IMG/VR virus record: IMGVR_UViG_3300046520_000074
Strand: one strand, 5' to 3'
DNA from: a virus
DNA length: 55,897 nucleotides
Numbering within the stretch: position 1 is the first letter of the stretch; each line of letters begins with the position of its first letter. Shown here in pieces: positions 7,253 to 31,968 of the stretch. The position numbers and the translations under genes are program-made. The notes under the pieces were generated by a model that was not told the origin of the DNA, did not search any database, and was given only the letters and a program-made list of their open reading frames with translations.

Positions 7253-7257
7253 GTCTC

Positions 7258-8480: not shown

Positions 8481-8540
8481 ATGACCGCAACTGAGAAGGA
8501 TCGCGACATCCTGGCCCGCACGCTTTGGGGTGGCAAATGA
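8481..8540 (+). pseudogene. 19-codon remnant of an endolysin 5' end
   Basis: MTATEKDRDILARTLWGGK-stop matches the intact lysin N-terminus MNATERDRDILARTLYGEARG at 9082. It keeps its own RBS (ggag). Its stop overlaps the HNH start (ATGA). Confidence 0.7.
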
Positions 8541-10019: not shown

Positions 10020-10689
10020 GGCGGATCAGCTCGGCGCCCTGGTTGCGCACATTGCCGACGGCGCGGTCCACCTTGAACCACTCGAAGGCCTCGGCCGGCT
10101 CACCCTGGTGCAGGACGATTTGCTCAGCCCGCTCCTTGGGCGTGGCCGGGTCCAGCCATTCCCGGGCGAGCTCAGGCGTCAGCACCACGGGCCGTCGGTC
10201 GTGGATGTCTACCATTCCGCCCTGGCTGTCGGCGGTAATGATCACAAAGCCGTCGTGCTCGCCCGGCTCCCGGGCGTCAGTGGGGAATTGGCCGATGGCC
10301 GCGCAGAATATCGGGGCCTGGTCTCGCCGGCGAATCAGGTAGGGCTGCTTCTTTGGTCCCCCCTCATCGACCCACTCAAACCAGTTGTTGATCGGCGTTA
10401 TGGCTCGGTTCGGCCAGATCGGGCGGTAGAACGGGCCGTGGGCCACTTTCTCTACCCGGGCATTGATTGGCGCAGCCCGGTCTTTGGCCCAGGCCGGCCG
10501 CCACCCCCATCGCACCAGGTCGGCATGCAGCGTGTCGTCCTCCTGGTGAAAGAGGGCGAGCTGCTGCGACGGCGCACCGTTGTACCTCTCCAGCGGCAGG
10601 TCGCCGGCGGAATTGACCAAGGCGTTGGGCATGCTCAAGGCCGCCACGAAGTCGTGGATGCCGGTGTATTGCGAGAGTCGTCCGCACAT
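9997..10689 (-). CDS. SOS response-associated peptidase (SRAP/YedK, DUF159)
   Basis: Start chosen at MCGR (Cys2 nucleophile). NARxE-like INARVEK and WFEW motifs. Confidence 0.85.
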   Translation of the reverse strand: MCGRLSQYTGIHDFVAALSMPNALVNSAGDLPLERYNGAPSQQLALFHQEDDTLHADLVRWGWRPAWAKDRAAPINARVEKVAHGPFYRPIWPNRAITPINNWFEWVDEGGPKKQPYLIRRRDQAPIFCAAIGQFPTDAREPGEHDGFVIITADSQGGMVDIHDRRPVVLTPELAREWLDPATPKERAEQIVLHQGEPAEAFEWFKVDRAVGNVRNQGAELIRPIADSIP

Positions 10690-10706
10690 GACGCCTGCTC
10701 CTGTAG

Positions 10707-11093
10707 TCACCTTGGCTGGGTGCTCGGGATTATGTCATCGGGAAGCCTATCCCCTTCATAAACCTTGAGCCGATGGTGCAGCTCGGCGATAAGCGTGGTA
10801 TTCGCCACACGCTCACCATTCGACTTGTTCATCAGTTCGACATATCGAAGGTGCTCGGAATTCCAAGCCCATTTCGCCTTGTCCAGATCAGCCCGAAGCC
10901 TGGCGCACTCCTTGGCCTCGGTCGCGTGCATTTCCACCAAACCAAAAATGTCCTGGAGCGCCTTGCGTAACTGGGTGGTCAGTTCCTGCACCTCGTTCTC
11001 CAGCATGCGACAGGATTGCCTGTACATCTCCAGCGGTGTGGGGCAGCCCAGCCAATCGCTGGTGTCTTCAATTTCAAACGGGTCCATGACCAT
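10707..11093 (-). CDS. Hypothetical coiled-coil protein, first gene of the SOS-box operon
   Basis: 128-aa ORF with an RBS, 17 nt upstream of the SRAP gene on the same strand. Confidence 0.6.
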   Translation of the reverse strand: MVMDPFEIEDTSDWLGCPTPLEMYRQSCRMLENEVQELTTQLRKALQDIFGLVEMHATEAKECARLRADLDKAKWAWNSEHLRYVELMNKSNGERVANTTLIAELHHRLKVYEGDRLPDDIIPSTQPR

Positions 11094-11106
11094 GCCTTGC
11101 CTTGTA

Positions 11107-11122
11107 CTGTTTGGATATACAG
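11107..11122. promoter_or_regulatory. LexA (SOS) box
   Basis: ctgtttggatatacag = CTGT-N8-ACAG, 14 nt upstream of the 11093 start codon. Confidence 0.7.
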
Positions 11123-11333
11123 TAATCGAGGCGACTCCATAGGGGCGATGATGAGACGACGGGCTGTAGGGTTTTGGGGGATGATCGGTCGGCAGGACGC
11201 CGGGGAGGGAGGTACCACTGTAGGAATATACAACGCTAAGTTATTGATTCTTATAGGATGGTAACGCTGTTTTTTCTAACGCTCCGTGCAGGTGTTTTCC
11301 TTTAATTTTCATAGTGTTACACTCGATTCACGG

Positions 11334-11492: not shown

Positions 11493-12629
11493 TCACAACG
11501 CCAATTCGGCTCCCACCTCGACGTACTCAATTGTCTTGTTGCCGTGCCCCTCCTGGTAGTGCCTGGTCATCTTCTCGTCCGCATGGCCCAGCAGCGCCTG
11601 GATATACTCCTGCGGGAAATCCTGCTGCTCATACAGCCATGCGCCCAAAGCGCGGATCTCATGAAAAGTGGGGCGCTCGCCGGCCTGCACATGGTCGTAG
11701 GCGTGTGCCGCGTCCCGGGCCTTGCTGAACTCCTTGGTCAGGTAGTCCGGTGTCACCGACGTCCAATGGTCCTTCGCGTCGATCTGCTCGCGCCGGCGCG
11801 CCTTCGGCTTGTAGTGGATCAGGTAAGGCGAAGCCAGAGGCGAACGCAGGCACTCGCCAACTACCTCCCGGAGCGCGGCGCCCATCTTGATTTTCAGGTG
11901 GACGGGGTTGTCATAACCCTGGGTCTTGCCGGGCGATACCGTCAGAGTGTTTTTCTCCATGTCGGCAGCTGATTTCAGCCATGTCACGATATCTTCGCGC
12001 CGTTGTAGGCTGGTCAGCGCCAGGCGAATTGCTCGCTTCAGCCATGGCGGCGTGGTGACCGCGTCGATGATCGACTTCAACCCATCGAGCGTGTGCCGCT
12101 GGCGCTTCTTCTCCGCCTCCTTCTTCACCAGGGTCAGCTCCGCGTTATTTCGCTCGGCCAGGCCCTTGGCCACGGCAAACGCGAATATCTGCACCCACAG
12201 TCCCCTGTGCTTGGTGTAGGCGTTGTTGCTGAACTGGTCCAGATACTCGGCCATAGCCAGCACGTCCATCTGACCGATGAGCCTATCTCCAAGGTCCTGC
12301 CGGTAGCGCTCGATCTTGAATTTGATCTCTTCCAAGGTGCGAGCGGCGTAGCCCTTATCCACCAGCCATTCATCGTGGAAGCGCTGGAGCAGGTTGCTGA
12401 CAGTCGGCAGGCGGTCACCCGTCAGCAGGGTGAGCAGCGCGCCATCGTCGACAACGAGTGCCGCCAGTTTCAAATTCGCCGCCCGGGCTAGTTTTATTGC
12501 CTCCTCTATGGGTCGGTTGATGCTCGTCATCAGGCCGGTGATTGGGTTGCGGTACCGCCAATACTTCCCGTTGGGGTAGAGATTTGGCGGTAACTTCCTG
12601 TTTTTCAGCGTGCGCGGCCGGGCAGCCAT
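11493..12629 (-). CDS. int: Tyrosine integrase (lambda Int family)
   Basis: N-terminal arm-binding type sequence (LPPNLYPNGKYWRYRNP). C-terminal HEIRALGAW...LLGHADEKMTRHY catalytic motifs. Confidence 0.92.
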   Translation of the reverse strand: MAARPRTLKNRKLPPNLYPNGKYWRYRNPITGLMTSINRPIEEAIKLARAANLKLAALVVDDGALLTLLTGDRLPTVSNLLQRFHDEWLVDKGYAARTLEEIKFKIERYRQDLGDRLIGQMDVLAMAEYLDQFSNNAYTKHRGLWVQIFAFAVAKGLAERNNAELTLVKKEAEKKRQRHTLDGLKSIIDAVTTPPWLKRAIRLALTSLQRREDIVTWLKSAADMEKNTLTVSPGKTQGYDNPVHLKIKMGAALREVVGECLRSPLASPYLIHYKPKARRREQIDAKDHWTSVTPDYLTKEFSKARDAAHAYDHVQAGERPTFHEIRALGAWLYEQQDFPQEYIQALLGHADEKMTRHYQEGHGNKTIEYVEVGAELAL

Positions 12630-13452: not shown

Positions 13453-14244
13453 TTAGGCTGTTGCGAATAAATCGATTTGCGGTACCGGGGTGTCCCGGAC
13501 AGTGATGGCGTCGGTGATGCGCTGGTGTGCGATATCGAGGTAGCCGAGGCGGTTGCCTTTCTCGTCCAGGTCCTTCTCGATGCCGATGAATCGGCGACCC
13601 AATTGCATGCAAGCCACGCCGGTGGTGCCGCTGCCCATGCTGTTGTCCAGCACCACCTGGCCGGGATGGGTGTAGGTGCTGATCAGAAAGGCCATCCAGG
13701 CCACTGGCTTTTGCGTCGGGTGGAAGCTGCCGGTCTGTTTGTCGCTGGAGAAGAACTGAACCGAGCGCGGGTACCGCTCTGTCGAGTCGTACTCAGCCAA
13801 GGCCAGGGCCTTCCCGTAGCACTCGGAGTTCACCGTCTTGCGCTTGGCCGTCTTTCGCTCATGCCCCCCCGACATCTGCGGGTTGTATACGGGCTGCTTG
13901 CGGTAGAAGACCTGGGCGCTTTCGTGCGCTCGAAGTGGCTGCTTCTTGGAGTTGAGAAAGCCTGTGGCGTTGCCTTTCTCCCAGATCCACTCGTACCGGT
14001 AGAGCTTCGGGTTGCTCGCCACCAGCATGGAGGCGAACGGCTGAGCCGCGCACAGAACGATGGCGGCCTCGGGCTTGGCGATCCGCAGGTATTCCCGCCA
14101 GAGCGGCTCGAGCGGGATGATGGTGTCCCAGGCGCATTGGGTCGATCCGTAGGGCAGGTCCGCCAGCACCATGTCGACGCTGGCGTCCGGCAGTTGCTTC
14201 ATGACGTCCAGGCAGTCGCCGAGATAGAGCTGATATTCGTTCAT
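13453..14244 (-). CDS. DNA N6-adenine/N4-cytosine methyltransferase (beta class)
   Basis: DLPYG (DPPY-type) motif near the N-terminus. HPTQKP and DNSMGSGTTG (FxGxG-type) near the C-terminus. Confidence 0.85.
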   Translation of the reverse strand: MNEYQLYLGDCLDVMKQLPDASVDMVLADLPYGSTQCAWDTIIPLEPLWREYLRIAKPEAAIVLCAAQPFASMLVASNPKLYRYEWIWEKGNATGFLNSKKQPLRAHESAQVFYRKQPVYNPQMSGGHERKTAKRKTVNSECYGKALALAEYDSTERYPRSVQFFSSDKQTGSFHPTQKPVAWMAFLISTYTHPGQVVLDNSMGSGTTGVACMQLGRRFIGIEKDLDEKGNRLGYLDIAHQRITDAITVRDTPVPQIDLFATA

Positions 14245-14294
14245 GGCCTCGGCCCCCTGTAGATGAGCCAGGCCATGTAGAGCAGGGGGGAGGA

Positions 14295-14663
14295 TCATGG
14301 CTGTGGCTCCTTCATCGCTGCCGCTGCAATCGATTCGATCTGATCGCAGTAGCCATAGATGTCCTGGGCGCTGTTCTGCCCGTTCACGCAGTCACGGACG
14401 GTTGGGCGGATGTTTCCGTCGACCTGGGCGGTGATGGCATGGAGGGCTTGGAGCAGCGCTTCGTTCTCGTCGATCAAGGCCCGGACTGCGGCGGGGTTGG
14501 CCGCGGCAATGAAGCGCGCGACAGGGCAGTCGCCATCCTCCTCGAAGGTTTCGAAGACAGCCTCACAGTCGCGGTCGACGACCTGCTTGATTCCGCCATG
14601 TTGGTACCAGGGCCCGGCTGGCGCAGCCTCGGCCAGCCGCTTCAATTCGTTGCGGTCGGTCAT
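14295..14663 (-). CDS. Ead/Ea22-like protein
   Basis: KRLAEAAPAGPWY motif. ATGA overlap with the upstream gene. Confidence 0.65.
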   Translation of the reverse strand: MTDRNELKRLAEAAPAGPWYQHGGIKQVVDRDCEAVFETFEEDGDCPVARFIAAANPAAVRALIDENEALLQALHAITAQVDGNIRPTVRDCVNGQNSAQDIYGYCDQIESIAAAAMKEPQP

Positions 14664-17155: not shown

Positions 17156-19099
17156 CTACGCCGCAGCCGCCTGCTGCTCTACAGCACGCCACGGATCGTT
17201 GGCCCGTGCCAAAGCAGCCATCGGCGGCGGACTGACGCTGTTGCCGCACATGTGGACCTGCTGGGTTTTGGTGAAGGGCTTGCCGTCGGCGCCATGGCTG
17301 ATGACGTAGTCGGCGGGGAAGCCCTGGGCCTTGTACAGCTCGGCCGGCTTCAGCATGCGCAGGCAGATGTCGACGATCACATACGGCGTGCCCTTGACCA
17401 TCACAGTGACCATCGCCAAGCGATCCTTGGTGGTGATGGTGGGCGCCGGTGCATCGCAAGCGCTGATGTTTTCGGTGCCGTAGTAGCTGATCAGGAAGGC
17501 CGCGACGCGAAGGGCGCCGTCTTCATGCTCAGGCGACAGCTTGTAATGCAGCAATGCGTGATGCTCGGCGCCCGCAGTCATGGTCGGTACCGGCTCATCT
17601 ACTCCCCGACCAACGCAGTTCCGGCGCAGGGTGGCTAGGCTGGCGCTCACCAACTGCTGCTGGCTGCCCGTGTTGGTCACCGTGGTCAGCGGCTCGTCCA
17701 TGCCCTTTGCGAAGGTGGTGTTAAAGCCGCCGTTCATCTGCGCCATAAACACAGTGGAGATACCCATCGCGTGGGCGGCACCGGCTGGGCGCTGGTAGTT
17801 GCCGCCACTGGTGATGGTTGGCAGAGGCTCATCCAGCGCCTTGCCCTCGTCCGCAAATCGGAACTTCACCAGGTGCGCCGAAGCGATCGCGGTGTCCGCT
17901 TTTGCTGTGATGGTGTACATCGCTTCATCTCCCGGGCGCGGCTCTGTTTGTCCAGCCCGCCCGCCGACACCCGTCAAGATAGGACTGATCAGCGTCAGCT
18001 CCCCACGGTTCGCGCATGTCACGGTAGGCAATGGGGCCATCGGGTCGTTAACCCTGACGCTACCCTGATGCGTGGCTGGCGCGATGACCGGGCTTGCCAT
18101 GGCGAACGAACCGCCGCGGGGCCAGCTGGTGATGGTACGTAGCGGCTCGGCCGACGATTGCGCCAGCTCACCAGACCAGTTAGCGATCGGCACAATGAAC
18201 GGCGCCGGGTTGTCGATGACGAACTTCTTCATGCCCTTGGCAACGCGGCGCAGGGTGGCCGGCGCCAGGTCCTTCTTACGGCCGAAGATGCTCTTGCCCA
18301 GGTCGCTGAAGTCGATGCAGTCGGCGGCGGTCTTCCACTTTTGCTGGCCTTTTACAGGGTTCTTCGCGTGGGTTGGCTCAGGCCATACGATTGGCTGTCC
18401 GTCGCACCGGGCGATCATGAACAGGCGTTCCCGGCTGGTCGGGGCGCCGAAGTCGCAGGCCTTGATCACACGCCATTCCACTGCGTAGCCCAGGCGCTTC
18501 AGCTCGGCTACGAACACAGCCCATGTCTGCCCGCGGCGTTTCGGGTCAGGCACCAGGAACTGCTGGTGGACAGGAACCACTTCGCCTGGCTCAGCGATGC
18601 CGCCGCCCAGCTTCACGACGCGGCCTGAGGACTTGCACCTCTTGGCGATCAGCGGCCCCCACTGGAGGATCTGCTTCACGTTCTCCAGGCTGATCACCCG
18701 GGGCATCTTCTTGCCGGCCCACTTGAGGCCGATCCACGACAGGTTCCGGATCTCGCGCTTGCGCGGCTGGCCGCCGGCGGCCTGGCTGTGGTGCGTGCAG
18801 TCCGGTGACATGTGGAACCAGCCCACGGCCTTACCGCCACACTCGGTATCGGGGTCGCCGTCGAAAACATCCGTCGTGTAGTGCACTGCGCCCGGGTGAT
18901 TCACGGTGTGCATACTGATCGCCTGCGGGCTGTGATTCTTCGCAACGTTCACCGTCCGGCCCAGGCCCATTTCCAACCCGGTACCGGCACCGCCGCCACC
19001 GCAGAAGAAGTCGACCACGATCTCGTCATCCTGAGGGTTGAAGCCGAGTCCGTATTGGGTTTTGAAATCGAAGGGGTGTTTCTTCTGTTGTGCGGACAT
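17156..19099 (-). CDS. DNA (cytosine-5) methyltransferase, large form
   Basis: FCGGGGAG (motif I), SPDCTHHS (PC-type motif IV), ENV (motif VI), GNSV (motif X). Confidence 0.85.
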   Translation of the reverse strand: MSAQQKKHPFDFKTQYGLGFNPQDDEIVVDFFCGGGGAGTGLEMGLGRTVNVAKNHSPQAISMHTVNHPGAVHYTTDVFDGDPDTECGGKAVGWFHMSPDCTHHSQAAGGQPRKREIRNLSWIGLKWAGKKMPRVISLENVKQILQWGPLIAKRCKSSGRVVKLGGGIAEPGEVVPVHQQFLVPDPKRRGQTWAVFVAELKRLGYAVEWRVIKACDFGAPTSRERLFMIARCDGQPIVWPEPTHAKNPVKGQQKWKTAADCIDFSDLGKSIFGRKKDLAPATLRRVAKGMKKFVIDNPAPFIVPIANWSGELAQSSAEPLRTITSWPRGGSFAMASPVIAPATHQGSVRVNDPMAPLPTVTCANRGELTLISPILTGVGGRAGQTEPRPGDEAMYTITAKADTAIASAHLVKFRFADEGKALDEPLPTITSGGNYQRPAGAAHAMGISTVFMAQMNGGFNTTFAKGMDEPLTTVTNTGSQQQLVSASLATLRRNCVGRGVDEPVPTMTAGAEHHALLHYKLSPEHEDGALRVAAFLISYYGTENISACDAPAPTITTKDRLAMVTVMVKGTPYVIVDICLRMLKPAELYKAQGFPADYVISHGADGKPFTKTQQVHMCGNSVSPPPMAALARANDPWRAVEQQAAAA

Positions 19100-19139: not shown

Positions 19140-20300
19140 TTACTTCTTCGGGTAGGTCTTGGTCAGCGCGCCGTTGACGGCATGGCCTCGCTTGAGCACG
19201 ACGCGAGCCAGGGCGGCCCGGTCTTTCTCGCTGTGGCTGGCCTGACTGAGCAGACCGAAGTAGCTGTTTGCGGTTTCGCGCAGATCCTCGGCAGGCGCCG
19301 CGGCTGTTCGCTTCAGCGCCTGAGCCAGTGACCGCTTCCGTGTCGTGCGCCGCCAGGGCTTGATGACGTGGCCGACGAAGTCGACGCCCCGATCCACCGG
19401 CTGAAGAATCGTCTTCTTCGGGTTCAGCTTGGCGCCCAGGCTGGGCAGGAATGCTTCCACTGCTGCCAGCCAGGCGTTGAGCTGTTGCGGCGACTCATGC
19501 AGGAACACGAAGTCATCGACGTATCGGATGTAGTGCTTGGCGCCCAGTCGGTGCTTGGCGAACTGGTCCAGGGCGTTCAGGTACACGTTGGCGAAGAACT
19601 GCGAGGACAGGTTGCCGATGGGCAGCCCCAGGCGGGCAGGCTGCGCAGTGAGGCGCTTGTGTTGCGGCACCCGATTGAACAGATGGGCCGGGCTGCGCAC
19701 CTCGTAGTCCTCGCGAGGGTCGTGCATCAGGATCTGTTCGGCGAGGGCCAGCCACCAGGGTTCGGTGATCTTGGCGGCCAACTGCTGGCGCAGCACCTCT
19801 TTGTCGATGGCGACGAAGAAGTTCGCCAGGTCGCACTTGAGGTAGAAGATCGGCTTCGACCAGTTCTCGCTGGCGCTGCGGATCTTCGATTCAAGGCGCT
19901 GGGCGGCGTACAACGTGCCTCGCCCAGGGATGCATGCGCAACTGTCCGCTATGAAGCTGGCGTAGAAGCGCGGTGCCACATGGTTGTACAGCAGGTGGTG
20001 GACGACGCGGTTCCGAAAGGCTGCTGCCCAGACTTCCCGGGCTTTCGGTCGGGTGACCACGAAGCAGATGGAGCGGCCTGGCCGGTAAGTGCCGGCGGTC
20101 AGGTCGTTGTGCAGCTCGATCAGGTTCCGCTCCAGGTCCATTTCGAAAGCCAGCGCGCTGTCGCTGTTGCGCTTGGAGCGTCGGCAGTCGTAATAGGCCT
20201 GGACCAGATCGCTGAATGGGTAGGGACCAACGTTCGAATCTGCGGACGGGGCGGACGCGGAGCTCGTTGTTCTTGTCGTTGTTGTTCTGATTGCCATCAT
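19140..20300 (-). CDS. DGR reverse transcriptase
   Basis: LPIGNLSSQFFANVYLNALDQF (DGR-type IGxxxSQ motif 4) and YIRYVDDFVF (YxDD). It lies immediately 3' of the TR. The only in-frame ATGs (20300 and 20297) lie inside the TR. Confidence 0.9.
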   Translation of the reverse strand: MMAIRTTTTRTTSSASAPSADSNVGPYPFSDLVQAYYDCRRSKRNSDSALAFEMDLERNLIELHNDLTAGTYRPGRSICFVVTRPKAREVWAAAFRNRVVHHLLYNHVAPRFYASFIADSCACIPGRGTLYAAQRLESKIRSASENWSKPIFYLKCDLANFFVAIDKEVLRQQLAAKITEPWWLALAEQILMHDPREDYEVRSPAHLFNRVPQHKRLTAQPARLGLPIGNLSSQFFANVYLNALDQFAKHRLGAKHYIRYVDDFVFLHESPQQLNAWLAAVEAFLPSLGAKLNPKKTILQPVDRGVDFVGHVIKPWRRTTRKRSLAQALKRTAAAPAEDLRETANSYFGLLSQASHSEKDRAALARVVLKRGHAVNGALTKTYPKK

Positions 20301-20340
20301 CGAAGTTCATGTTGAATGCGTTGTTGGCGGAGCGCTGCGA
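20237..20340 (-). repeat. DGR template repeat (TR)
   Basis: Sense strand TCGCAGCGCTCCGCC-AACAACGCATTCAACATGAACTTCGATGATGGCAATCAGAACAACAACGACAAGAACAAC-GAGCTCCGCGTCCGCCCCGTCCGCAGATT. It has 10 Asn codons. It is homologous to three VRs, differing almost only at its adenines. Confidence 0.9.
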
Positions 20341-20511
20341 CCTATCGTGCTATCTACGTCACCAAGCCGAAGGCGGAGCCGATCAGCAAGGCAACTGCGC
20401 GAGACCTACACGGACGCTTTAGACCGGCGGTATCTCTTGTGCGCATGGCGGTGACCAGAAGGTCAGCGGCACGACCAGATTCAATTCGCACAGACCTGAA
20501 AGCCGTGGCTC
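20341..20511 (-). ncRNA. avd-TR spacer, presumed part of the DGR RNA
   Basis: 171-nt non-coding interval between the avd stop and the TR 5' end. It is positionally equivalent to the BPP-1 Sp region. Confidence 0.5.
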
Positions 20512-20868
20512 TCAGATGGCGGGCGCGGTTGGGGTGGAACGTTTCCAGGCGTTTGCCTGTTTGCCAATTGAGGTGGTGATCTCGATAGCCTTGGCGTGCT
20601 GCGGCACGCTGATGAAACGGCTTTCCTTGAAAAGCCTCATCAGGAACTCGATCACCTGGACCTTCTCGACCAGCGAGGTCAGGTGTGGATGCTTGTCCCG
20701 GGTCGAGTTGGCCCGGGCAATCAACATCAGCACGTCGATGCACTCGTCGATCACCCGCTTGCCGAGCGACTGCTTCAGGTCGCGGGGGATGTTTCGAGTC
20801 AGGTTGGTAGCCATGAGCAACAAGCCCATCGACACCTTGTAGATGCTCAGTTCTGTGTGCATTCCCAT
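20512..20868 (-). CDS. avd: Accessory variability determinant (Avd), four-helix-bundle protein
   Basis: 118 aa, basic and helical. It resembles the 23S-rRNA-IVS / four-helix-bundle family. It sits between the target and the TR as in BPP-1. Confidence 0.8.
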   Translation of the reverse strand: MGMHTELSIYKVSMGLLLMATNLTRNIPRDLKQSLGKRVIDECIDVLMLIARANSTRDKHPHLTSLVEKVQVIEFLMRLFKESRFISVPQHAKAIEITTSIGKQANAWKRSTPTAPAI

Positions 20869-20925: not shown

Positions 20926-21546
20926 TTAATCAATCAATTGACTGCGGACGGGGCGGACGCGGAGCTCGTTGCTCTTGACGTCGCTGACCTGATAGCCATC
21001 ACCGAAGCCCATGATGAATGCGGTGTCGGCGGAGCGCTGCGAACTCGACCAGTAGGCGCGATCCTGGAACGCCTCAGGGCCATCTTCCTGGAAGGCTTCG
21101 ATGCTGGTCTGGGTGGGCGACTCCTCGGTGTACAGCAGGCCGACCGGCTCGCTGTTGGGGTTGTCGCCGCTGCGCCCGTACTGCCAGTTCTCTTCGGTGG
21201 TTGGCTTGAAGTGGCGATACTGCAGCTCCTGCACGTCGCGGGCCGGGATCGCCCAGTCAGTGAAACCGCCGATGTCCAGGGCCAGGACTTTCTGCGCCAG
21301 TTCGCTGCCAGAGGCTGCCATGGCCTCGGTATTGGCCCGGCTGTCGGTGAAGCTTTCGGCCCCCTCGATCTTCTCGCCGTACTTGCCCCATGCACCGACC
21401 AGCTCATGTTCGGCGCCGGCGGTGATATTCAGGTAGCGCTTGCCGGTGTCCGGGTCGCGGGTGATGCCGGAGAAGAAGCCGCCACCGAACGGCTGGCCGA
21501 TTTCCGGGATGGTCACTGCTGGTGCTGCTTGAGCTGCTGCGGACAT
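20926..21546 (-). CDS. DGR target protein 1 (DUF1566 / C-type-lectin-fold-like)
   Basis: Start at MSAAAQ with an RBS aaagaggaaa. GQPFGGGFFSG...DW.IPA..EL...YWSSSQRSA...ELRVRPVR. VR1 occupies the C-terminus. Confidence 0.85.
   Translation of the reverse strand: MSAAAQAAPAVTIPEIGQPFGGGFFSGITRDPDTGKRYLNITAGAEHELVGAWGKYGEKIEGAESFTDSRANTEAMAASGSELAQKVLALDIGGFTDWAIPARDVQELQYRHFKPTTEENWQYGRSGDNPNSEPVGLLYTEESPTQTSIEAFQEDGPEAFQDRAYWSSSQRSADTAFIMGFGDGYQVSDVKSNELRVRPVRSQLID
20942..21042 (-). repeat. DGR variable repeat VR1
   Basis: 101 bp alignable to TR 20240-20340. 13 differences by hand count, all at TR adenines. Peptide SQRSADTAFIMGFGDGYQVSDVKSNELRVRPVR. Confidence 0.9.
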
Positions 21547-21572
21547 GGTCTTTCCTCTTTTCGAAGGCAACA

Positions 21573-21596
21573 AAAAAGGCGCTGCTGCGCCCCGGT
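21573..21596 (-). terminator. Hairpin plus T-run after target 2
   Basis: Minus strand ggcgc-agca-gcgcc followed by ttttttg. Confidence 0.55.
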
Positions 21597-21624
21597 GCCG
21601 GATCAAGAACGGATGAATGAAGGA

Positions 21625-22230
21625 TTAAATAAAGAATCTGCGGACGGGGCGGACGCGGAGCTCGCCGTCCTTGACGCCGTAGTCCTGAGGGCCAACATCG
21701 AAGTGCACGCTGAATGCGCCGTAGGCGGAGCGCTGCGAAGATGACCAGTACCAGGTGTCTTGGGCGAACACCTCAGGACAGTTCAGCCAGCCCTGGTACA
21801 GCTCGGCAGCGGCGGGCAGGTAGAAGTCGTTGTGGCCGTCTACCGCATACTCGGCGCAGGCATCGGACGCCGGATAATCGTTTTCGTCGAAGCACATCAG
21901 TTCGGTGTTGAGCTTGCCGTCCGTTTTGCTGGTGCCCGGCAGATCAGTGTTACGTGGACCCCATTCAAAGCTGCCAGCGTCCTTTGCAGCGAAGATCAGG
22001 TAGTGCGCCGGGACATCGCCACGAGCGGCAACCAGGCCGCCGTTGATGCCGCCCTGGCTCGGCCAGTACTCGCCCAGGGCAGGCACTGCACCTGGTGCTG
22101 GCGGCGCAACATTCGCCGCCTGGGGCAGGGCACCGGCAAACAAGGCGGCGACCGCGATCTCGGCCAGCCTGGTGCGCGCCACTTTGAATTGAGCACCGTT
22201 GTAGTTCAGCTTCACCATTTCAGCTTTCAT
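21625..22230 (-). CDS. DGR target protein 2 (DUF1566 / C-type-lectin-fold-like)
   Basis: GEYWPSQGGINGGLV...DFYLPAAAEL...WYWSSSQRSA...ELRVRPVRR. VR2 occupies the C-terminus. Confidence 0.85.
   Translation of the reverse strand: MKAEMVKLNYNGAQFKVARTRLAEIAVAALFAGALPQAANVAPPAPGAVPALGEYWPSQGGINGGLVAARGDVPAHYLIFAAKDAGSFEWGPRNTDLPGTSKTDGKLNTELMCFDENDYPASDACAEYAVDGHNDFYLPAAAELYQGWLNCPEVFAQDTWYWSSSQRSAYGAFSVHFDVGPQDYGVKDGELRVRPVRRFFI
21635..21738 (-). repeat. DGR variable repeat VR2
   Basis: 104 bp alignable to the TR. 17 differences by hand count, all at TR adenines. Peptide SQRSAYGAFSVHFDVGPQDYGVKDGELRVRPVR. Confidence 0.9.
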
Positions 22231-22289: not shown

Positions 22290-22601
22290 TTATTCGTCGT
22301 GGCAGATGCGAAGGGCTTCGCGCTGATATGCCAGGGTCAATTTTTCCGACACGTTTTCGGGTATCACGTATTCGTGTCGCGGAGCAGAAAGGAACTGAGC
22401 AGATCCAGTCGGGCCAAGGCCGTGCAGATGGTGAATCATCAGCGTCATGGCCTCGCCCTGTTCCTCAATACCGTTCCAGGCCATCAGGTCGGCCAGGGCC
22501 TGGCGGGTGCCAGCCAGCGTGTGCAGGCGTAACTCCTCTTCGCCGCGGCTCTTTCGCTTCGCCGCGGTCTTTGCTGACCGGTCTTTCTGAGCTGCAGCCA
22601 T
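22290..22601 (-). CDS. Hypothetical protein
   Basis: 103-aa ORF in the leftward operon. Confidence 0.55.
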   Translation of the reverse strand: MAAAQKDRSAKTAAKRKSRGEEELRLHTLAGTRQALADLMAWNGIEEQGEAMTLMIHHLHGLGPTGSAQFLSAPRHEYVIPENVSEKLTLAYQREALRICHDE

Positions 22602-28147: not shown

Positions 28148-28750
28148 TCAATGAATAGACAATCTGCGGACGGGGCGGACGCGGAGCTCGTAGAACTTGA
28201 AGCTGGTGCCCTGAGTGCCAGCAACGAAGTACATGAGGAAGGCGTCGTAGGCGGAGCGCTGCGAACTGCTCCAGTGCCACTCCTTCTCAAACAGCTCCGG
28301 CACGTTCGCCATGCACAGGGCCAGCTCGTCGATGGCTGGCAGGTAGAGATCCTTGTGGCCCTCGACAGTGAGGCCGTCGCACCACTGGGCGGCCGGGTGG
28401 TTCTGGTCGGAGCCTTCAACCAGGTGAAGCGTGTTCGCCAGGCCATCCCGGCGGCTTGCCGCTTCCGGCTCATCCACCTCATAGCCGCCAAAGGCCAGCT
28501 TCTTGCCCTTGACCGATTCGTGAGTGGGGACGATCACCCAGTAATCAGGGGTGCCGTTCTCTCCGCGCATCAGGCCGGCATTCACACCGCCTTGGCCGGC
28601 CCAATACTCGCCGATGGCCGGGGCCGAGATTGCGAACGTGGCAGGCTGAGCGCTCATCGACAAGGTCGCCAGTTTCAGCACCATCGATTCGTCAGGACTG
28701 CTGATCATTAGGTCGCCACGGGTGTAGGTGGTCAGTTGAGTTGCTTGCAT
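28148..28750 (-). CDS. DGR target protein 3 (remote; DUF1566 / C-type-lectin-fold-like)
   Basis: Start at MQATQL with an aaggaa RBS. GEYWAGQGGVNAGLM...DLYLPAIDEL...WHWSSSQRSA...ELRVRPVRR. VR3 occupies the C-terminus. Confidence 0.85.
   Translation of the reverse strand: MQATQLTTYTRGDLMISSPDESMVLKLATLSMSAQPATFAISAPAIGEYWAGQGGVNAGLMRGENGTPDYWVIVPTHESVKGKKLAFGGYEVDEPEAASRRDGLANTLHLVEGSDQNHPAAQWCDGLTVEGHKDLYLPAIDELALCMANVPELFEKEWHWSSSQRSAYDAFLMYFVAGTQGTSFKFYELRVRPVRRLSIH
28161..28264 (-). repeat. DGR variable repeat VR3
   Basis: 104 bp alignable to the TR. 17 differences at TR adenines plus one at a TR guanine (codon GAC in TR versus TTC in VR3). Peptide SQRSAYDAFLMYFVAGTQGTSFKFYELRVRPVR. Confidence 0.88.
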
Positions 28751-29189: not shown

Positions 29190-29432
29190 TCACGCAACCT
29201 TTTCGAGAACTTCCCGGCTGAAGGCCTGAATGTTCATGTGTGCCTTGACCGTCATTGCCTGGCGCTGCTTGATGTGGCTGCGCATCGCAAGGTCTGCTAT
29301 GTCGGCTGGGTCAGCTTCGAGTGCTGCAATCGCCTCATCTACTCCGCCGAACCACTTCTCCAGCAGCCTGGCGCAGGAAGCGGCGGCTTCGCTAACCACC
29401 TCATCACTCACTTCAAAAACTGAAGTACTCAT
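29190..29432 (-). CDS. Hypothetical protein
   Basis: 80-aa ORF. Confidence 0.5.
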   Translation of the reverse strand: MSTSVFEVSDEVVSEAAASCARLLEKWFGGVDEAIAALEADPADIADLAMRSHIKQRQAMTVKAHMNIQAFSREVLEKVA

Positions 29433-29640
29433 TACGTGCCTCCCGGTTGCTTTCCCAATGCACCCGGTCGCCCAGGTGCATCAGTGAAAAATCCGTATTG
29501 CTCGCGCCTCCTACCGGGTCATTCGCCAGTTCGGTCAACACCTCGTCCGCCGTCGCAGTTCTGCGCGTTGGTAGCCTTTCGGGGCTATCGGATCGCCGGT
29601 CGCCAGCAGTGGCAGCGCGATTTTTTTCACCTGACTTCAT
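29413..29640 (-). CDS. First gene downstream of the PL-like promoter; Arg-rich N-terminus (N-like antiterminator candidate by position only)
   Basis: GDRRSDSPERLPTRRTA basic stretch. No sequence similarity to lambda N is claimed. Confidence 0.45.
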   Translation of the reverse strand: MKSGEKNRAATAGDRRSDSPERLPTRRTATADEVLTELANDPVGGASNTDFSLMHLGDRVHWESNREARNEYFSF

Positions 29641-29763
29641 CTCGCCCCACAGGTGTGGCCGGGGCTGACCTCCCAGCGTTAGCCGGGTAATCGTTTATGG
29701 CGCGGATTGTTAAAGAGCGGCGCGGCTTTCGCTGCTGGGCCGGTGTTGCTTGGCTTGGAACAA

Positions 29764-29808
29764 ACATTACTAGCGATAATATTAATCGTCAAGACCGCAG
29801 GTAATAAA
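29764..29808 (-). promoter_or_regulatory. PL-like promoter with operator
   Basis: Minus strand TTGACG-17 nt-TAATGT. The motif aagaccgcaggtaataa (29791-29807) overlaps the -35 and recurs in the cI/cro intergenic region. Confidence 0.55.
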
Positions 29809-29868
29809 AATTATCACGGACAATAAAAAGCCCACTCGGTGGCGGGCTCGGGGATGGGGTGGGGCGGC

Positions 29869-30155: not shown

Positions 30156-30219
30156 TATTGATCCTGACGTATTTTGGCAAGAGCGTGGGTGGCGATTAGC
30201 TTTCATTCTTGATTTGGCA

Positions 30220-30244
30220 CAAAAAAGCCCGCACTTGGCGGGCT
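30220..30244 (-). terminator. Rho-independent terminator after the membrane-protein gene
   Basis: Minus strand agcccgc-caagt-gcgggct followed by tttttt. Confidence 0.75.
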
Positions 30245-30261
30245 TCGTCATCGCTGGATGT

Positions 30262-30816
30262 TTAGGTGACTGGCTCGATCAGAAATAGCTCTCCATGCAG
30301 ATCGCAGTGGGATATCAGACTTTCGCGTGCACTAGCTGCCTCGGATTCAGAGGGGAACGGGCCAGCAATTAAGAGTTTTGGGGTGCCTTTAGTCAGCGGT
30401 AGTCCGATACGCTTGATGGCCTTGGTTGCTTCTGCATGCTGCCAGGGCTCGCACTCTATCTGCACAGCCCAACCGTGCGCCAAAGGAGCTTGTCCGGAGC
30501 GAGATGGAGAAACGTCGGCGCCGCAATGTCTGCATTTGATTGCTGCGTTTTTAATGGGCTCTGCACAAAGCGGGCAGGGCCGCGTGTCGAATTGCGCTGC
30601 TGTTTGCGCTGCCGAGGTCTTGCCTCCAAGCAGAACCATTAGCAAGCCTGCAAGCGCTATCATCCCGCCAACAATAGTGTGTATCTGGCGGTCAGCCATG
30701 AGCCCCAGGTTGTTCACTCTGCCGCCGGCGCCTGTAGCGACAGATACGTCCATGCTCAACGCGAACACCAGCCAGCAGATGCCGATGATCAGTGCAAGCG
30801 TTCCAAATCCTTTCAT
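30262..30816 (-). CDS. Membrane protein with a zinc ribbon and a SPOR-like C-terminal domain
   Basis: Start at MKGFGTL. Two hydrophobic segments. CPLCAEPI..KCRHCG. C-terminal WAVQIE...LLIAGPFPSESEAASA resembles a SPOR fold. It is adjacent to cI. Confidence 0.7.
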   Translation of the reverse strand: MKGFGTLALIIGICWLVFALSMDVSVATGAGGRVNNLGLMADRQIHTIVGGMIALAGLLMVLLGGKTSAAQTAAQFDTRPCPLCAEPIKNAAIKCRHCGADVSPSRSGQAPLAHGWAVQIECEPWQHAEATKAIKRIGLPLTKGTPKLLIAGPFPSESEAASARESLISHCDLHGELFLIEPVT

Positions 30817-30921
30817 TGGATAACCCCCGAAATTGAGCACGCACTTTACCATCCGTGGCGTACGGCCACCATTGGCATGCTGGGAAGGGCATGTGCTGGA
30901 TCGGATTTGGGATTGATCAAG

Positions 30922-31662
30922 TTAGTAATGAAACTTCTGTGTTGCCTGCACCACGACGCCCACGATCCGGCAGTTCTCATCAAATACTTCCGTGGGGTAC
31001 CCGGGATTCAGCGGCTTCAGGAACAGCTTTCCGCCATCACTGACTAGCTTTTTGAAGGTTGCCTCATTGCTGTCGGGCAGCTTGGCTACGACCAGCTTGC
31101 CCGGCGCAGCTTCGACCTCTGTATCGACGAGGATCAGTGAGCCTTGGGCGATGCTGGTGCCAACCTGCGAGGTCATTGAGTCGCCCTTGACTTCAAGCCA
31201 GAACGCTGGGCCCTTCGAGTCGTATTCGGAAAACTCGTATCGATCTGAAAATCCAGCCGGGTAGGGCTCGACAGCTTCAGACCAAGCGCCGGCGGCAACC
31301 CAACTGATCACTGGGTAGCGGAAAGACTGCTTTGGTTGTCTCACTTCCCCCACGTTTGAATTCGAATCCTCAGAAAGGCGATCGATTTCTTTTGCCAGGC
31401 GCGCACTGAAGTCCGACACCGGGACTTGAAGGTAGCGAGCGAAGACAGCCGCCGCCTCGATGTTCAACGCGTTTCTGCCAGTCAAATAGTGGCTGGCTGC
31501 ACTTTGACTATTCGCCTTGAGTCCTTCAATGGCGATCTTCTCCTGGCTGATTCCCAGTTCCTTTTTCTTCGCCTTGTAAATCGCGTTAAGCGCAGCGCAC
31601 TCGGCCTTCTCAACCTCGGAAAGCTCGCGTTTTTTGGTCAGGTTTTTTTCAGTCGTTTTCAT
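30922..31662 (-). CDS. cI: CI-type repressor (HTH plus S24 autopeptidase)
   Basis: Close match in pattern to lambda cI: YPVISWVAAGAW (Ala-Gly cleavage site), FWLEVKGDSM, ATFKKL...LKPLNPGYP. Confidence 0.92.
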   Translation of the reverse strand: MKTTEKNLTKKRELSEVEKAECAALNAIYKAKKKELGISQEKIAIEGLKANSQSAASHYLTGRNALNIEAAAVFARYLQVPVSDFSARLAKEIDRLSEDSNSNVGEVRQPKQSFRYPVISWVAAGAWSEAVEPYPAGFSDRYEFSEYDSKGPAFWLEVKGDSMTSQVGTSIAQGSLILVDTEVEAAPGKLVVAKLPDSNEATFKKLVSDGGKLFLKPLNPGYPTEVFDENCRIVGVVVQATQKFHY

Positions 31663-31767
31663 CAGGCAACTGTATTACTTCAGGTATTAACATTCCAAGA
31701 CCGCCAATATTGACTTAATAAAGACCGCAAGTAATACTTACGCATGCATCACGCAGGAGAACCCCGT
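31663..31767. promoter_or_regulatory. OR region: divergent PRM/PR-like promoters with repeated operator motifs
   Basis: aagaccgc-N-a.taat motifs at 31697 and 31721. Inverted GTATTACTT (31672) and AAGTAATAC (31729). PR candidate TTGACT (31710-31715)-16 nt-TAATAC (31732-31737). Confidence 0.6.
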
Positions 31768-31968
31768 ATGCAACGCACACCACTGAAAGAGTTCGTGACA
31801 AAGGTCGGGCAGATCAAGGCTGCCGCCGCGCTTGGGCTTACCCAGGGCGGAATTAGCAAGGCGCTTAGGGCTGATCGCGAGGTTTATGTGATTGATCTCG
31901 GCGACGGCTCCTACAAGGCCGAAGAGATCAAGCCCTTCCCAGGCCAGGCCCAAAGGCTCGCCAGCTAA
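31768..31968 (+). CDS. cro: Cro-like repressor (HTH)
   Basis: MQRTPLKEFVTKVGQIKAAAALGLTQGGISKAL. Divergent from cI. Confidence 0.8.
   Translation: MQRTPLKEFVTKVGQIKAAAALGLTQGGISKALRADREVYVIDLGDGSYKAEEIKPFPGQAQRLAS

What the first reader, a model, noticed from the sequence alone, without database searches (positions are those of the whole stretch)
20926..22230. The DGR diversifies early-operon proteins, not tail or receptor-binding proteins
In the best-known phage DGR, BPP-1, the target is the tail fibre tip. Here the tail genes J, the fibre and the Tfa (2895-8420) carry no VR. All three targets lie in the leftward PL-type operon, among the exo/ERF recombination genes, the Ea22-like genes and the DNA methyltransferases. 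That region usually holds host-takeover and anti-defence functions. Target 1 has no N-terminal signal peptide or lipobox visible by eye. Target 2 has a hydrophobic stretch after a basic segment (KVARTRLAEIAVAALFAGALPQAA), which is ambiguous. A hypermutating ligand-binding fold expressed early could act as a diversifying binder of host proteins, for example defence-system or surface components. This is hypothesis only.
Basis: inference. Interest (0 to 1): 0.85.

Follow-up and report, generated by a model that had tools for sequence, protein, structure and literature searches.

The report
Phage hypermutation system targeting early, non-tail proteins
A temperate Pseudomonas phage carries a working hypermutation cassette (a DGR) that rewrites the tips of three small early-gene lectin-like proteins rather than its tail fibres; this is rare but has one published precedent, and what the proteins bind is unknown.

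Summary
The window is a lambda-like Pseudomonas phage genome. A complete DGR lies on the minus strand between cI and int: reverse transcriptase, 101-nt template repeat (TR), RT-15 leader RNA and Avd. There are exactly three variable repeats (VRs), each at the 3' end of a ~200-aa DUF1566/Lcl_C paralogue (T1, T2, T3). 47 of 48 TR/VR mismatches fall on TR adenines. No TR-like sequence occurs in the J, fibre or Tfa genes. The system is active. A 99.7%-identical sister contig differs at 23 positions in VR1 and VR2, all at TR adenines, against one substitution in about 13.7 kb of the rest.

The cassette is common: 481 relatives in IMG/VR, plus cultured Pseudomonas, Burkholderia and Shewanella phages. 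In the loci and phage records examined it sits in the cI-to-int early arm. DGR-less homologues include D3 orf68 and an early, non-virion gene of jumbo phage PA5oct. The targets show no signal peptide or lipobox by eye or by hydropathy.

The proposed role as a diversifying binder of host or defence proteins is plausible but untested. There is a precedent: Quimbyvirus (Benler 2021) has one non-structural DGR target beside methyltransferases. Verdict: a new variant of a known kind, of moderately high interest.

The parts
19140..20300 (-). DGR reverse transcriptase (386-aa ORF; its first ATG lies inside the TR, and the conserved RT region starts near residue 30)
   Evidence: PF00078 at 61.5 bits and phrog_1423 at 2.9e-117. 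DGR-type motif IGNLSSQ at residue 228 and YVDD at residue 260. 481 relatives in IMG/VR.
20240..20340 (-). Template repeat (TR), 101 nt with 31 adenines; encodes SQRSANNAFNMNFDDGNQNNNDKNNELRVRPVR with 10 AAY codons
20338..20528 (-). RT-15 RNA motif: structured 5' leader of the DGR RNA, running from the end of avd into the first bases of the TR
   Evidence: Rfam RF03018, 173.2 bits against a gathering score of 82, E = 1.2e-42. The same feature is annotated in phage Cruim01.
20512..20868 (-). Avd accessory protein (118 aa)
   Evidence: PF22296 bAvd at 47.6 bits (cut-off 40). phrog_3206 'Avd protein of DGR' at 5.3e-30. NCBIfam DivGenRetAVD at 50 bits, below its cut-off of 80.
20926..21546 (-). Target 1 (T1), 206 aa: acidic, no cysteine, no N-terminal extension; a DUF1566/Lcl_C protein with VR1 at its 3' end
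   Evidence: Lcl_C at E = 8.1e-07 (29.8 bits, below the gathering score of 34.9). phrog_4245 at 8.1e-32. 889 homologues, with entropy of about 3 bits only at VR codons.
20942..21042 (-). VR1
   Evidence: 13/13 mismatches at TR adenines. 3 adenine-site differences to sister contig L090.
21625..22230 (-). Target 2 (T2), 201 aa: N-terminal beta-hairpin plus helix module, then a DUF1566/Lcl_C domain, with VR2 at its 3' end
   Evidence: Lcl_C at E = 4.6e-06. phrog_4245 at 1.5e-29. Family profile hits PDB 8Q4E (Lcl C-terminal domain) at E = 7.7e-4. AF2 N-terminal module pLDDT 75-82.
21638..21738 (-). VR2
   Evidence: 17/17 mismatches at TR adenines. 20 adenine-site differences to sister contig L090. 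GC hairpin followed by a T-run at 21576-21593.
28148..28750 (-). Target 3 (T3), 200 aa: remote paralogue with the same N-terminal module as T2; fourth ORF downstream of the PL-like promoter
   Evidence: Lcl_C at E = 1e-4. phrog_4245 at 5.2e-31. Alignment. A third remote VR is present in 15 of the 80 related loci.
28164..28264 (-). VR3
   Evidence: 17 of 18 mismatches at TR adenines. Identical in sister contig L090.
29707..29815 (-). PL-like control region: operator-like TATTACCTGCGGTCTT, TTGACG-17 nt-TAATGT promoter, and boxA-like GCTCTTTAACAA
   Evidence: Sequence read. The only two exact YTGCGGTCTT copies lie here and in the cI/cro intergenic region. A single boxA match, 0.08 expected by chance.
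30922..31662 (-). cI-type repressor (S24 peptidase), diverging from cro at 31744-31968 (+); marks the immunity region that heads the leftward arm
   Evidence: phrog_4 at 5.6e-45. ORF list.

Best explanation
This is an active diversity-generating retroelement (DGR) inside the leftward early (PL-type) arm of a lambda-like temperate Pseudomonas phage.

Mechanism (known DGR mechanism, inferred here):
- RT and Avd copy the TR RNA, which carries the RT-15 leader, into cDNA. Adenines are copied unfaithfully.
- The cDNA replaces the last ~100 nt of three paralogous genes.

The three products are small (~200 aa), acidic DUF1566/Lcl_C (C-type-lectin-like) proteins with no signal peptide. Ten AAY codons sit in the variable tip.

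Expression and location (inferred):
- The proteins are non-structural.
- They are made from the early leftward transcript together with the recombination and DNA-methyltransferase genes.
- They act inside the infected cell as variable binders.

The most likely role is in conflict with the host: neutralising or sequestering a variable host factor such as a defence protein. Diversification would then change which hosts the phage can grow in after entry, not which cells it adsorbs to.

Shown: the DGR anatomy, adenine-specific variation, recent activity, absence of any tail VR, and conservation of the early-arm position. Inferred: early expression, cytoplasmic location and non-virion status. Hypothesis only: the ligand and the counter-defence role.
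For: - DGR parts and adenine bias.
- Only four repeat copies in the window, none in tail genes.
- Recent activity: against sister contig L090, 23 of 23 VR1/VR2 differences are at TR adenines, versus one other substitution in about 13.7 kb. Among homologues of T1 and T2, entropy of about 3 bits is confined to VR codons.
- Early-arm placement: same strand as cI, ERF, YqaJ, methyltransferases, xis and int. A PL-like promoter with a cI-operator-like repeat and boxA lies upstream.
- Conservation: the T2-T1-Avd-TR-RT cassette is present in 76-79 of 80 IMG/VR loci. YqaJ, ERF and cI lie upstream and Int downstream on the same strand wherever detected. No J, tape measure or terminase homologue lies within 10 kb.
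- The layout is the same in Pseudomonas phages Cruim01 and Haboob, Burkholderia phage Magia and Shewanella phage vB_Sb_QDWS. The last carries a C5 methylase and a 'host nuclease inhibitor' right after the RT.
- Non-structural status by homology: D3 orf68 is the first gene leftward of cI. The PA5oct homologue EST35_0104 lies in the gp34-gp105 block reported as early, with only gp39, gp48 and gp51 structural (PMC7318152).
- No export signal: maximum 19-residue hydropathy is 0.76, 1.43 and 1.15. There is no N-terminal Cys or lipobox, and T1 has no Cys. The T2/T3 N-terminal module is conserved and modelled as a folded hairpin plus helix.
- Precedent for a non-structural DGR target beside methyltransferases: PMC8008677.
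Against: - There is no direct expression, localisation or virion-proteome data for this phage or any close relative.
- No similarity to any known anti-defence or defence protein (PADLOC none). The PHROG family has unknown function.
- Structure prediction failed to give a confident C-type-lectin model (pLDDT 45 and 62, with the VR region below 40). Foldseek found nothing.
- Pfam Lcl_C scores are below the gathering threshold.
- The T2 hydrophobic helix (IAVAALFAGAL), which follows basic residues, cannot be formally excluded as an export signal without SignalP.
- Guilt by association in the early arm is weak. That arm is also simply where accessory cassettes are tolerated.
- The PA5oct argument rests on about 33% identity and on equating locus tag 0104 with gp104.
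Confidence: 0.55

Rival explanations
1. The variable proteins act against other phages or mobile elements rather than against the host. They would be a diversifying exclusion or immunity function that binds proteins of superinfecting or co-resident phages. They would be expressed early in lytic growth, or at a low level from the prophage, and would give lysogen populations a pre-made repertoire of binders.
For: - D3 orf68 and T3 sit close to the immunity region, where rex-, sie- and moron-type functions are usually found.
- Three paralogues and population-wide diversity fit a repertoire strategy.
- DGR-linked candidate immune sensors are discussed for cellular genomes (PMC10053308; references in PMC8008677).
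Against: - T3 lies downstream of the PL-like, operator-bearing promoter, and two terminator-like hairpins separate it from cI. It should therefore be repressed in lysogens.
- The proteins have no effector domain.
- There are no PADLOC hits.
Confidence: 0.17
2. The proteins leave the cytoplasm, either by an unrecognised export signal in T2/T3 or on lysis. They would then bind envelope or extracellular ligands, for example masking receptors as T5 Llp or Cor proteins do, or binding cell debris or polysaccharide. They would still be surface-directed, like most DGR targets.
For: - DUF1566 is typical of surface and secreted proteins: Lcl, LdtA, and giant multi-repeat proteins among the best hits.
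- T2 has a hydrophobic helix after basic residues.
- T2 and T3 keep two roughly aligned cysteines.
Against: - T1, D3 orf68 and the PA5oct homologue start directly with the domain and have no leader.
- T1 has no cysteine.
- The hydrophobic segment starts at about residue 22, after a conserved beta-hairpin, and is followed by a conserved PPAANV motif rather than an AxA cleavage site.
- The homologous T3 segment is too polar. Hydropathy is below the usual 1.6 transmembrane threshold.
Confidence: 0.1
3. The proteins are virion components, accessory receptor-binding or decoration proteins, that happen to be encoded away from the tail module. The DGR would then still switch tropism as in BPP-1.
For: - Most phage DGR targets are tail proteins (PMC8144416).
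- The Magia genome note suggests host-range change.
- The PHROG family profile is 583 positions long, so some members may be larger proteins.
Against: - The targets are on the opposite strand and 13-20 kb from the tail genes, embedded between recombination and methylase genes.
- No tail-attachment or collar domain was detected.
- The PA5oct homologue is not listed among the virion proteins of its gene block.
- No structural homologues lie within 10 kb in the 80 related loci.
Confidence: 0.05
4. The position says nothing about function. The targets-avd-TR-RT block is a self-contained mobile cassette that sits in the cI-to-int arm only because insertions are tolerated there. The DUF1566 proteins may have a role unrelated to their neighbours, or be nearly neutral cargo.
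For: - The flanks of the cassette are mosaic between phages.
- Avd-TR-RT is cleanly replaced by a ~490-nt gene in Aurca01 and Medea1, while the target pair stays.
- A terminator is annotated just upstream of the Magia cassette.
Against: - The target pair, plus the upstream 103-aa gene, is kept even where the RT is lost.
- DGR-less homologues persist in D3, PMG1 and PA5oct-like jumbo phages, which argues for a selected function.
- Framework residues are strongly conserved while only VR codons vary.
- Whatever its origin, the cassette is still co-oriented with the early transcript.
Confidence: 0.13

Closest known systems
Bordetella phage BPP-1 DGR (mtd-avd-TR-brt)
   Same: Same machinery and logic: a DGR-type RT with the IGxxxSQ motif, Avd, one TR, adenine-specific mutagenesis, a VR at the 3' end of the target ORF, an invariant GC-rich 3' end of the repeat, and a small hairpin downstream.
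   Different: The BPP-1 target is Mtd, the tail-fibre tip in the late structural module. Here there are three targets, none structural, of the DUF1566/Lcl_C class rather than Mtd, and the whole cassette is in the early leftward arm. The leader RNA is the RT-15 motif upstream of the TR.
Quimbyvirus ('Quimbyviridae', Bacteroides) DGR, Benler et al. 2021 (PMC8008677)
   Same: A phage DGR with a C-type-lectin target encoded on the strand opposite the structural genes, next to several DNA methyltransferases and a nuclease. The authors interpreted it as non-structural and conflict-related.
   Different: Quimbyvirus also diversifies a second target next to the tail-fibre genes, and its RT is split over three frames. 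Here every target is non-structural, the host is a proteobacterium, the phage is lambdoid, and cultured relatives exist. Relatedness of the target proteins was not tested.
Category 'd' / CLec2 DGR targets (DUF1566, e.g. Legionella LdtA), Wu et al. 2018 (PMC5758913)
   Same: The same target domain family. About half of that category are short proteins consisting only of the DUF1566 domain. Multiple targets, including non-adjacent ones within the same prophage, are described.
   Different: LdtA is an exported, surface-anchored lipoprotein of a cellular element. These phage proteins lack a lipobox or signal peptide and sit in an early phage operon.
Burkholderia phage Magia DGR (MT701587; PMC7883833) and Pseudomonas phages Cruim01, Haboob, phPA-G, LPPA56, SC_8_H2H8_2017
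   Same: The same DGR clade (RT 67-92% identical) in the same place between the recombination genes and int. In Magia, two short 'lectin fold' genes are already annotated as potential DGR targets.
   Different: These are genome announcements only. The Magia note suggests adaptation or host-range change without noting that the targets are non-structural. Cruim01's RT is annotated as 'retron-type', and its paper does not mention a DGR.
Phage D3 orf68 / PA5oct EST35_0104 (phrog_4245 family)
   Same: Homologous stand-alone DUF1566 proteins (about 33% identity to T1) in early or immunity-proximal positions of Pseudomonas phages, with the same WYWSSSQ...RVRPVR C-terminus.
   Different: No DGR is annotated beside them in the regions viewed, and neither phage appears among the records with an RT match at E <= 1e-30 that were listed (30 of 46). 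They appear to be fixed versions of the scaffold. Their function is also unknown.

Membership tests
Diversity-generating retroelement (DGR) | Reverse transcriptase of the DGR type (RT domain with the [LIV]GxxxSQ motif) | tested here: met
   PF00078 at 61.5 bits; phrog_1423 at 2.9e-117. IGNLSSQ at residue 228 and YVDD at residue 260. The significance of the motif comes from my own knowledge of DGR RTs.
Diversity-generating retroelement (DGR) | TR/VR repeat pair(s) whose differences fall almost only at TR adenines | tested here: met
   47 of 48 mismatches at TR adenines over three VRs, P = 2.6e-23.
Diversity-generating retroelement (DGR) | VR at the 3' end of a protein-coding target, with AAY codons in the TR | tested here: met
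   Each VR ends 5-6 codons before the stop codon of T1, T2 or T3. There are 10 AAY codons in the TR.
Diversity-generating retroelement (DGR) | Accessory protein Avd next to the TR and RT | tested here: met
   PF22296 above its gathering score; phrog_3206 'Avd protein of DGR'. The NCBIfam equivalog score is below its cut-off.
Diversity-generating retroelement (DGR) | IMH-type invariant 3' end and a hairpin downstream of the VR | tested here: inconclusive
   A 26-nt GC-rich end is identical in the TR and all VRs, so no IMH/IMH* difference is visible inside it. Short GC hairpins lie 30-55 nt downstream of each VR, but they are not better than shuffled controls.
Diversity-generating retroelement (DGR) | Evidence of ongoing mutagenic retrohoming | tested here: met
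   Sister contig L090 has 23 differences in VR1 and VR2, all at TR adenines, against one elsewhere in about 13.7 kb.
DUF1566 / Lcl_C C-type-lectin-like target class (Wu category d) | Significant match to Pfam PF07603 | tested here: inconclusive
   E = 8e-07 to 1e-04, but 23-30 bits is below the gathering score of 34.9. Most close homologues carry precomputed PF07603 hits and NCBI names such as 'DUF1566 domain-containing protein'.
DUF1566 / Lcl_C C-type-lectin-like target class (Wu category d) | Relationship to a solved DUF1566 structure with a C-type-lectin-like fold | tested here: met
   The family profile hits 8Q4E (Lcl C-terminal domain) at E = 7.7e-4 over the VR-bearing C-terminus. 8Q4E is described as C-type-lectin-like in PMC11162425. 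The match is marginal but specific.
DUF1566 / Lcl_C C-type-lectin-like target class (Wu category d) | Predicted 3D fold is C-type-lectin-like, with the variable residues on one surface | tested here: inconclusive
   AF2 models have pLDDT 45 and 62, with the VR region below 40. Foldseek against the PDB gave no hit at E < 1.
BPP-1 Mtd-type tropism-switching target | The target is a tail-fibre or receptor-binding protein in the structural (late) module | tested here: not met
   There is no VR in J, fibre or Tfa. The targets are on the opposite strand, among the early genes.
Surface-displayed or secreted DGR targets (LdtA, TvpA type) | N-terminal signal peptide, lipobox or transmembrane anchor | tested here: not met
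   No lipobox or N-terminal Cys. Maximum 19-residue hydropathy is 0.76, 1.43 and 1.15. The T2/T3 N-terminus is a conserved hairpin-helix module. This was a manual test only, with no SignalP or TMHMM.
Non-structural phage DGR target in a counter-defence neighbourhood (Quimbyvirus type, Benler 2021) | Target on the strand opposite the structural genes and adjacent to DNA methyltransferases or nucleases | tested here: met
   The RT is followed 41 nt later by a 647-aa C5 methyltransferase. A second methyltransferase is at 13453-14298, and the exonuclease and ERF genes lie upstream. The same holds in Haboob and the Shewanella phage.
Non-structural phage DGR target in a counter-defence neighbourhood (Quimbyvirus type, Benler 2021) | Demonstrated early expression, non-virion status and a role in conflict | not testable with these tools
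   There is only indirect support, from PA5oct transcriptome and virion statements for a 33%-identical homologue.

The most novel reading that the evidence does not exclude
A whole clade of DGRs in lambdoid phages of Pseudomonas, Burkholderia and Shewanella hypermutates intracellular early proteins, and these serve as an evolvable counter-defence or host-takeover repertoire. The phage would change its post-entry host range by retargeting a lectin-like binder onto variable host immunity or host factors. This would be an antibody-like anti-immunity system in a virus, separate from tropism switching at the cell surface.
Probability: 0.3. Interest if true: 0.85.

Novelty: new variant of a known kind. 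Interest (0 to 1): 0.62.

Why it matters
Phage DGRs are generally explained as tropism switches acting on tail fibres. What a phage gains by hypermutating a non-structural protein is an open question, raised by a single metagenomic case (Quimbyvirus) with no culture system.

This window shows that the situation is common. There are 481 relatives in IMG/VR, and in the loci and phage records examined the cassette sits in the early cI-to-int arm. In this window every target is early-arm, and the DGR is demonstrably active in nature.

The question is also experimentally accessible. Cultured phage-host pairs carry the same cassette: Cruim01 on P. syringae CC1557, Haboob on P. aeruginosa, and Magia on B. 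cenocepacia. There are natural DGR-minus counterparts that keep the target pair (Aurca01 on the same P. syringae strain, and Medea1). If the targets prove to bind host defence proteins, this would be a programmable, self-diversifying anti-immunity binder. If they bind something else, it would still widen the known uses of DGRs.

Tried and rejected
- Structure route. Two AlphaFold2 runs gave low-confidence models: T1 with 32 sequences (pLDDT 45) and T2 with 130 sequences (pLDDT 62). The hypervariable C-terminus was below 40. Foldseek against the PDB returned only insignificant hits (E >= 3) to small hairpin-helix proteins such as the Lsr2 dimerisation domain. I draw no fold conclusion from these.
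- Single-sequence search of T2 against PDB sequences found nothing. Only family profiles reach Lcl-CTD.
- NCBIfam and PADLOC gave no family for the targets. PADLOC hits for the RT are generic RT similarity.
- Signal peptide in T2. I considered this seriously. I rejected it as unlikely because the segment is preceded by a conserved 20-residue hairpin and followed by a conserved PPAANV motif, and because it is homologous to a polar segment in T3. It is not formally excluded.
- The Trp-leader Rfam hit at 30219-30373 is below threshold. It is simply a terminator hairpin after the gene next to cI.
- The promoter and terminator consensus scan of 16.5-32.5 kb was no better than shuffled sequence. The PL assignment rests instead on the operator-like repeat and boxA. 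No second (nutR) boxA was found.
- A literature search on 'HbP1' was wasted on a human gene. The PDB code search resolved it.
- The supplement of Wu et al. 2018 was not available to check whether this DGR is already listed.
Full report
WHAT THE WINDOW IS. The 55.9-kb window is a lambda-like temperate Pseudomonas phage genome, circularly permuted in the assembly.
- Late genes run on the plus strand: terminase 41808-43295, major head protein 46962-47930, tape measure 52187-55234, J 2895-6173, fibre 7258-7986, Tfa 7983-8420, endolysin 9082-9507.
- On the minus strand, a continuous block runs from the cI-type repressor (30922-31662, diverging from cro at 31744) down to xis and int (11493-12629). 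It contains an ERF annealing protein, a YqaJ exonuclease and two DNA methyltransferases.
- The closest cultured relatives are Pseudomonas phages.

A complete DGR lies in that minus-strand block.
- RT ORF 19140-20300, with the motifs IGNLSSQ and YVDD.
- A 101-nt template repeat (TR) at 20240-20340.
- An RT-15 RNA motif (Rfam RF03018, 173 bits) at 20338-20528, running from the end of avd into the TR.
- Avd at 20512-20868.

The TR has exactly three other copies in the window, each at the 3' end of an ORF:
- VR1 20942-21042, in T1 (20926-21546).
- VR2 21638-21738, in T2 (21625-22230).
- VR3 28164-28264, in T3 (28148-28750).

Of 48 TR/VR mismatches, 47 are at TR adenines (31 A in 101 nt; P = 2.6e-23). 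The TR encodes 10 AAY codons. Neither conserved end of the repeat occurs anywhere in the tail genes. T1 most likely starts at ATG 21546, not at the TTG at 21606.

THE DGR IS ACTIVE.
- A sister contig from another sample (L090) is 99.7% identical over 14.4 kb. Apart from a mosaic segment at the 3' end of the methyltransferase gene, it differs by a single substitution. In contrast it has 20 substitutions in VR2 and 3 in VR1, and all 23 are at positions of TR adenines.
- Among 104 T1 homologues of identical length, positional entropy is about 3 bits at the AAY-derived codons and near zero in most of the framework. The same holds for the T2 family.

WHAT THE TARGETS ARE.
- T1, T2 and T3 are paralogues, 34-36% identical.
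- They match Pfam Lcl_C/DUF1566 at E = 1e-4 to 8e-7, which is below the gathering score.
- They belong to PHROG 4245, of unknown function.
- As a family profile they hit the solved Lcl C-terminal domain, 8Q4E, at E = 7.7e-4. That domain is described as C-type-lectin-like, trimeric and free of disulfides (PMC11162425).
- This places them in the DUF1566/CLec2 target class of Wu et al. 2018, where about half the members are short DUF1566-only proteins (PMC5758913).
- My two structure predictions were too poor to confirm the fold.
- The wider superfamily is very large: 21,785 representative clusters at E <= 1e-3. It includes both ~200-aa stand-alone proteins and giant multi-repeat proteins.

ARE THEY EXPORTED OR STRUCTURAL?
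- T1 starts directly with the domain, has no cysteine and is strongly acidic (31 D+E against 17 K+R).
- Maximum 19-residue hydropathy is 0.76 for T1, 1.43 for T2 and 1.15 for T3. No N-terminal lipobox cysteine is present.
Its pattern is xLTxxxGDxxIxxP followed by xxLxKLAxLA and a conserved PPAANV linker. AlphaFold2 models it as a beta-hairpin plus helix with pLDDT 75-82.
- I therefore regard a signal peptide as unlikely, but no dedicated predictor was available.
- DGR-less homologues support non-structural status. D3 orf68 is the first gene leftward of cI. The PA5oct homologue EST35_0104 lies in the terminal-repeat gene block gp34-gp105. That block is reported as highly transcribed early, with only gp39, gp48 and gp51 structural (PMC7318152). 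This assumes that locus-tag number equals gp number.

IS IT AN EARLY OPERON? All of this is sequence inference, not expression data.
- Downstream of cI there is a 196-aa membrane/zinc-ribbon ORF and a strong terminator hairpin.
- Then comes the sequence TATTACCTGCGGTCTTGACGATTAATATTATCGCTAGTAATGT. Its first 16 nt match 15 of 16 nt of a sequence in the cI/cro intergenic region. It also contains TTGACG-17 nt-TAATGT. The only two exact YTGCGGTCTT copies in the window are at these two sites.
- A boxA-like GCTCTTTAACAA follows at 29707-29718, then a small ORF with several arginines. T3 is the fourth ORF of this transcript.
- T2, T1, avd, TR and RT follow further down on the same strand, after erf and exo, and directly before the C5 methyltransferase.
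- This fits a PL-type, antitermination-dependent early transcript.

HOW GENERAL IS IT?
- The RT has 481 relatives in IMG/VR.
- In the best 80 loci, Avd is present in 79 and T1/T2-type genes in 76. VRs lie about 700 and 1400 nt upstream of the TR, and 15 loci have a third, remote VR.
- Wherever detected, YqaJ, ERF and cI lie upstream and Int downstream on the same strand. No J, tape measure, terminase or portal homologue lies within 10 kb.
- Cultured phages show the same layout. In Pseudomonas phage Haboob the order is cI, two short genes, Avd, RT, C5 methylase, Bet, nuclease. Cruim01 is similar.
- Burkholderia phage Magia has two 'lectin fold' genes already annotated as potential DGR targets, one of them as the first leftward gene (PMC7883833).
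- In Shewanella phage vB_Sb_QDWS the RT is followed by a cytosine methylase and a 'host nuclease inhibitor'.
- Aurca01 and Medea1 keep the T2/T1 pair but have a ~490-nt gene in place of Avd-TR-RT. They are natural DGR-minus comparators, and Aurca01 grows on the same P. syringae strain as Cruim01.

HOW IT MOST LIKELY WORKS.
- Shown: the anatomy and recent activity of the DGR, the absence of tail targets, and the conserved early-arm position.
- From established DGR biology (BPP-1): the TR RNA, here with the RT-15 leader, is reverse-transcribed by RT-Avd with adenine misincorporation. The cDNA then replaces the VRs.
- Inferred: the cassette and its targets are expressed from the early leftward transcript, so diversification accompanies lytic growth, and each variant is tested at the next infection. 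The targets are cytoplasmic binders.
- Hypothesis: their ligands are variable host factors such as defence proteins, so the DGR would tune post-entry host range.
- I put about 0.55 on the composite statement. That breaks down as roughly 0.75 for 'non-structural, early, intracellular' and roughly 0.3 for 'counter-defence'.
- The rivals are: exclusion of other phages; exported or post-lysis surface binders; virion accessory proteins; and position being merely permissive.

COMPARISON WITH WHAT IS KNOWN.
- Surveys state that viral DGR targets are mostly tail proteins (PMC8144416).
- Benler et al. 2021 reported as unprecedented that Quimbyvirus has, besides a tail-proximal target, a second target on the opposite strand among four methyltransferases and a nuclease (PMC8008677).
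- The present case resembles that one but goes further. All targets are non-structural, it represents a large clade in Proteobacteria, and it has cultured members.
- Pseudomonas and Burkholderia were already noted as DGR-rich genera with DUF1566 targets (PMC6642488). The Cruim01 paper does not mention the DGR.
- I found no paper interpreting this clade's targets as early or non-structural. The library searched is incomplete.

VERDICT. Novelty: a new variant of a known kind. Interest: 0.62.

Noticed in passing
20338-20528 (-): The Rfam RT-15 RNA motif (173 bits) runs from the last codons of avd to the first three bases of the TR. In this DGR clade, RT-15 therefore appears to be the structured 5' leader of the DGR template RNA. 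It is annotated the same way in phage Cruim01.
   Followed up: partly
17198-17747 (-), 3' part of the C5 methyltransferase gene 17156-19099: In sister contig L090, all but one of the differences outside the VRs cluster in this ~550-nt segment (about 20 substitutions). The 20 differences in L089's second aligned segment (17749-11000) cluster here too. The C-terminal part of the 647-aa methyltransferase looks mosaic or recombinant.
   Followed up: no
22290-22601 (-): A 103-aa gene of unknown function (phrog_5439) sits directly upstream of T2 in 43 of 80 related loci, and also in DGR-less Medea1 and Aurca01. It travels with the target pair rather than with the RT and could be a partner of the targets.
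   Followed up: partly
L088 (Aurca01) 8358-10177; L002 (Medea1) 9358-11177: Two cultured P. syringae phages keep the T2/T1 gene pair with VR-like ends, but a ~490-nt gene (annotated 'RecB' in Aurca01) replaces Avd-TR-RT. They are natural DGR-minus versions of Cruim01.
   Followed up: partly
30219-30852 (-): cI is followed on the same strand by a 196-aa membrane/zinc-ribbon ORF (phrog_8032) and a strong terminator hairpin (AAGCCCGCCAAGTGCGGGCTTTTTT). This is a rex-like, probably lysogen-expressed position. Rfam reported the hairpin as a sub-threshold Trp-leader hit.
   Followed up: no
29413-29815 (-): An operator-like repeat shared with the cI/cro region, a TTGACG-17 nt-TAATGT promoter, a boxA-like GCTCTTTAACAA and a small ORF with several arginines suggest an N-type antitermination system. 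No second boxA (nutR) was found.
   Followed up: partly
20265-20272 region of the TR and the matching positions in VR1-3: The AAG (Lys) codon inside the TR is unchanged in all three VRs and is nearly invariant in homologues, although both adenines are mutable. A change of the first A to T would create a stop codon.
   Followed up: no
9997-10710 (-): An SRAP/YedK-like ORF (sequence MCGRLSQ...) lies between the lysis genes and int. Burkholderia phage Magia has an annotated SOS-response-associated peptidase at the same position.
   Followed up: no
38069-38225 (+): Two adjacent tRNA genes, tRNA-Met (CAT) and tRNA-Thr (TGT), lie in the right arm of the phage.
   Followed up: no
8525-9082 (+): An HNH endonuclease gene is inserted between the tail-fibre assembly gene and the endolysin.
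   Followed up: no
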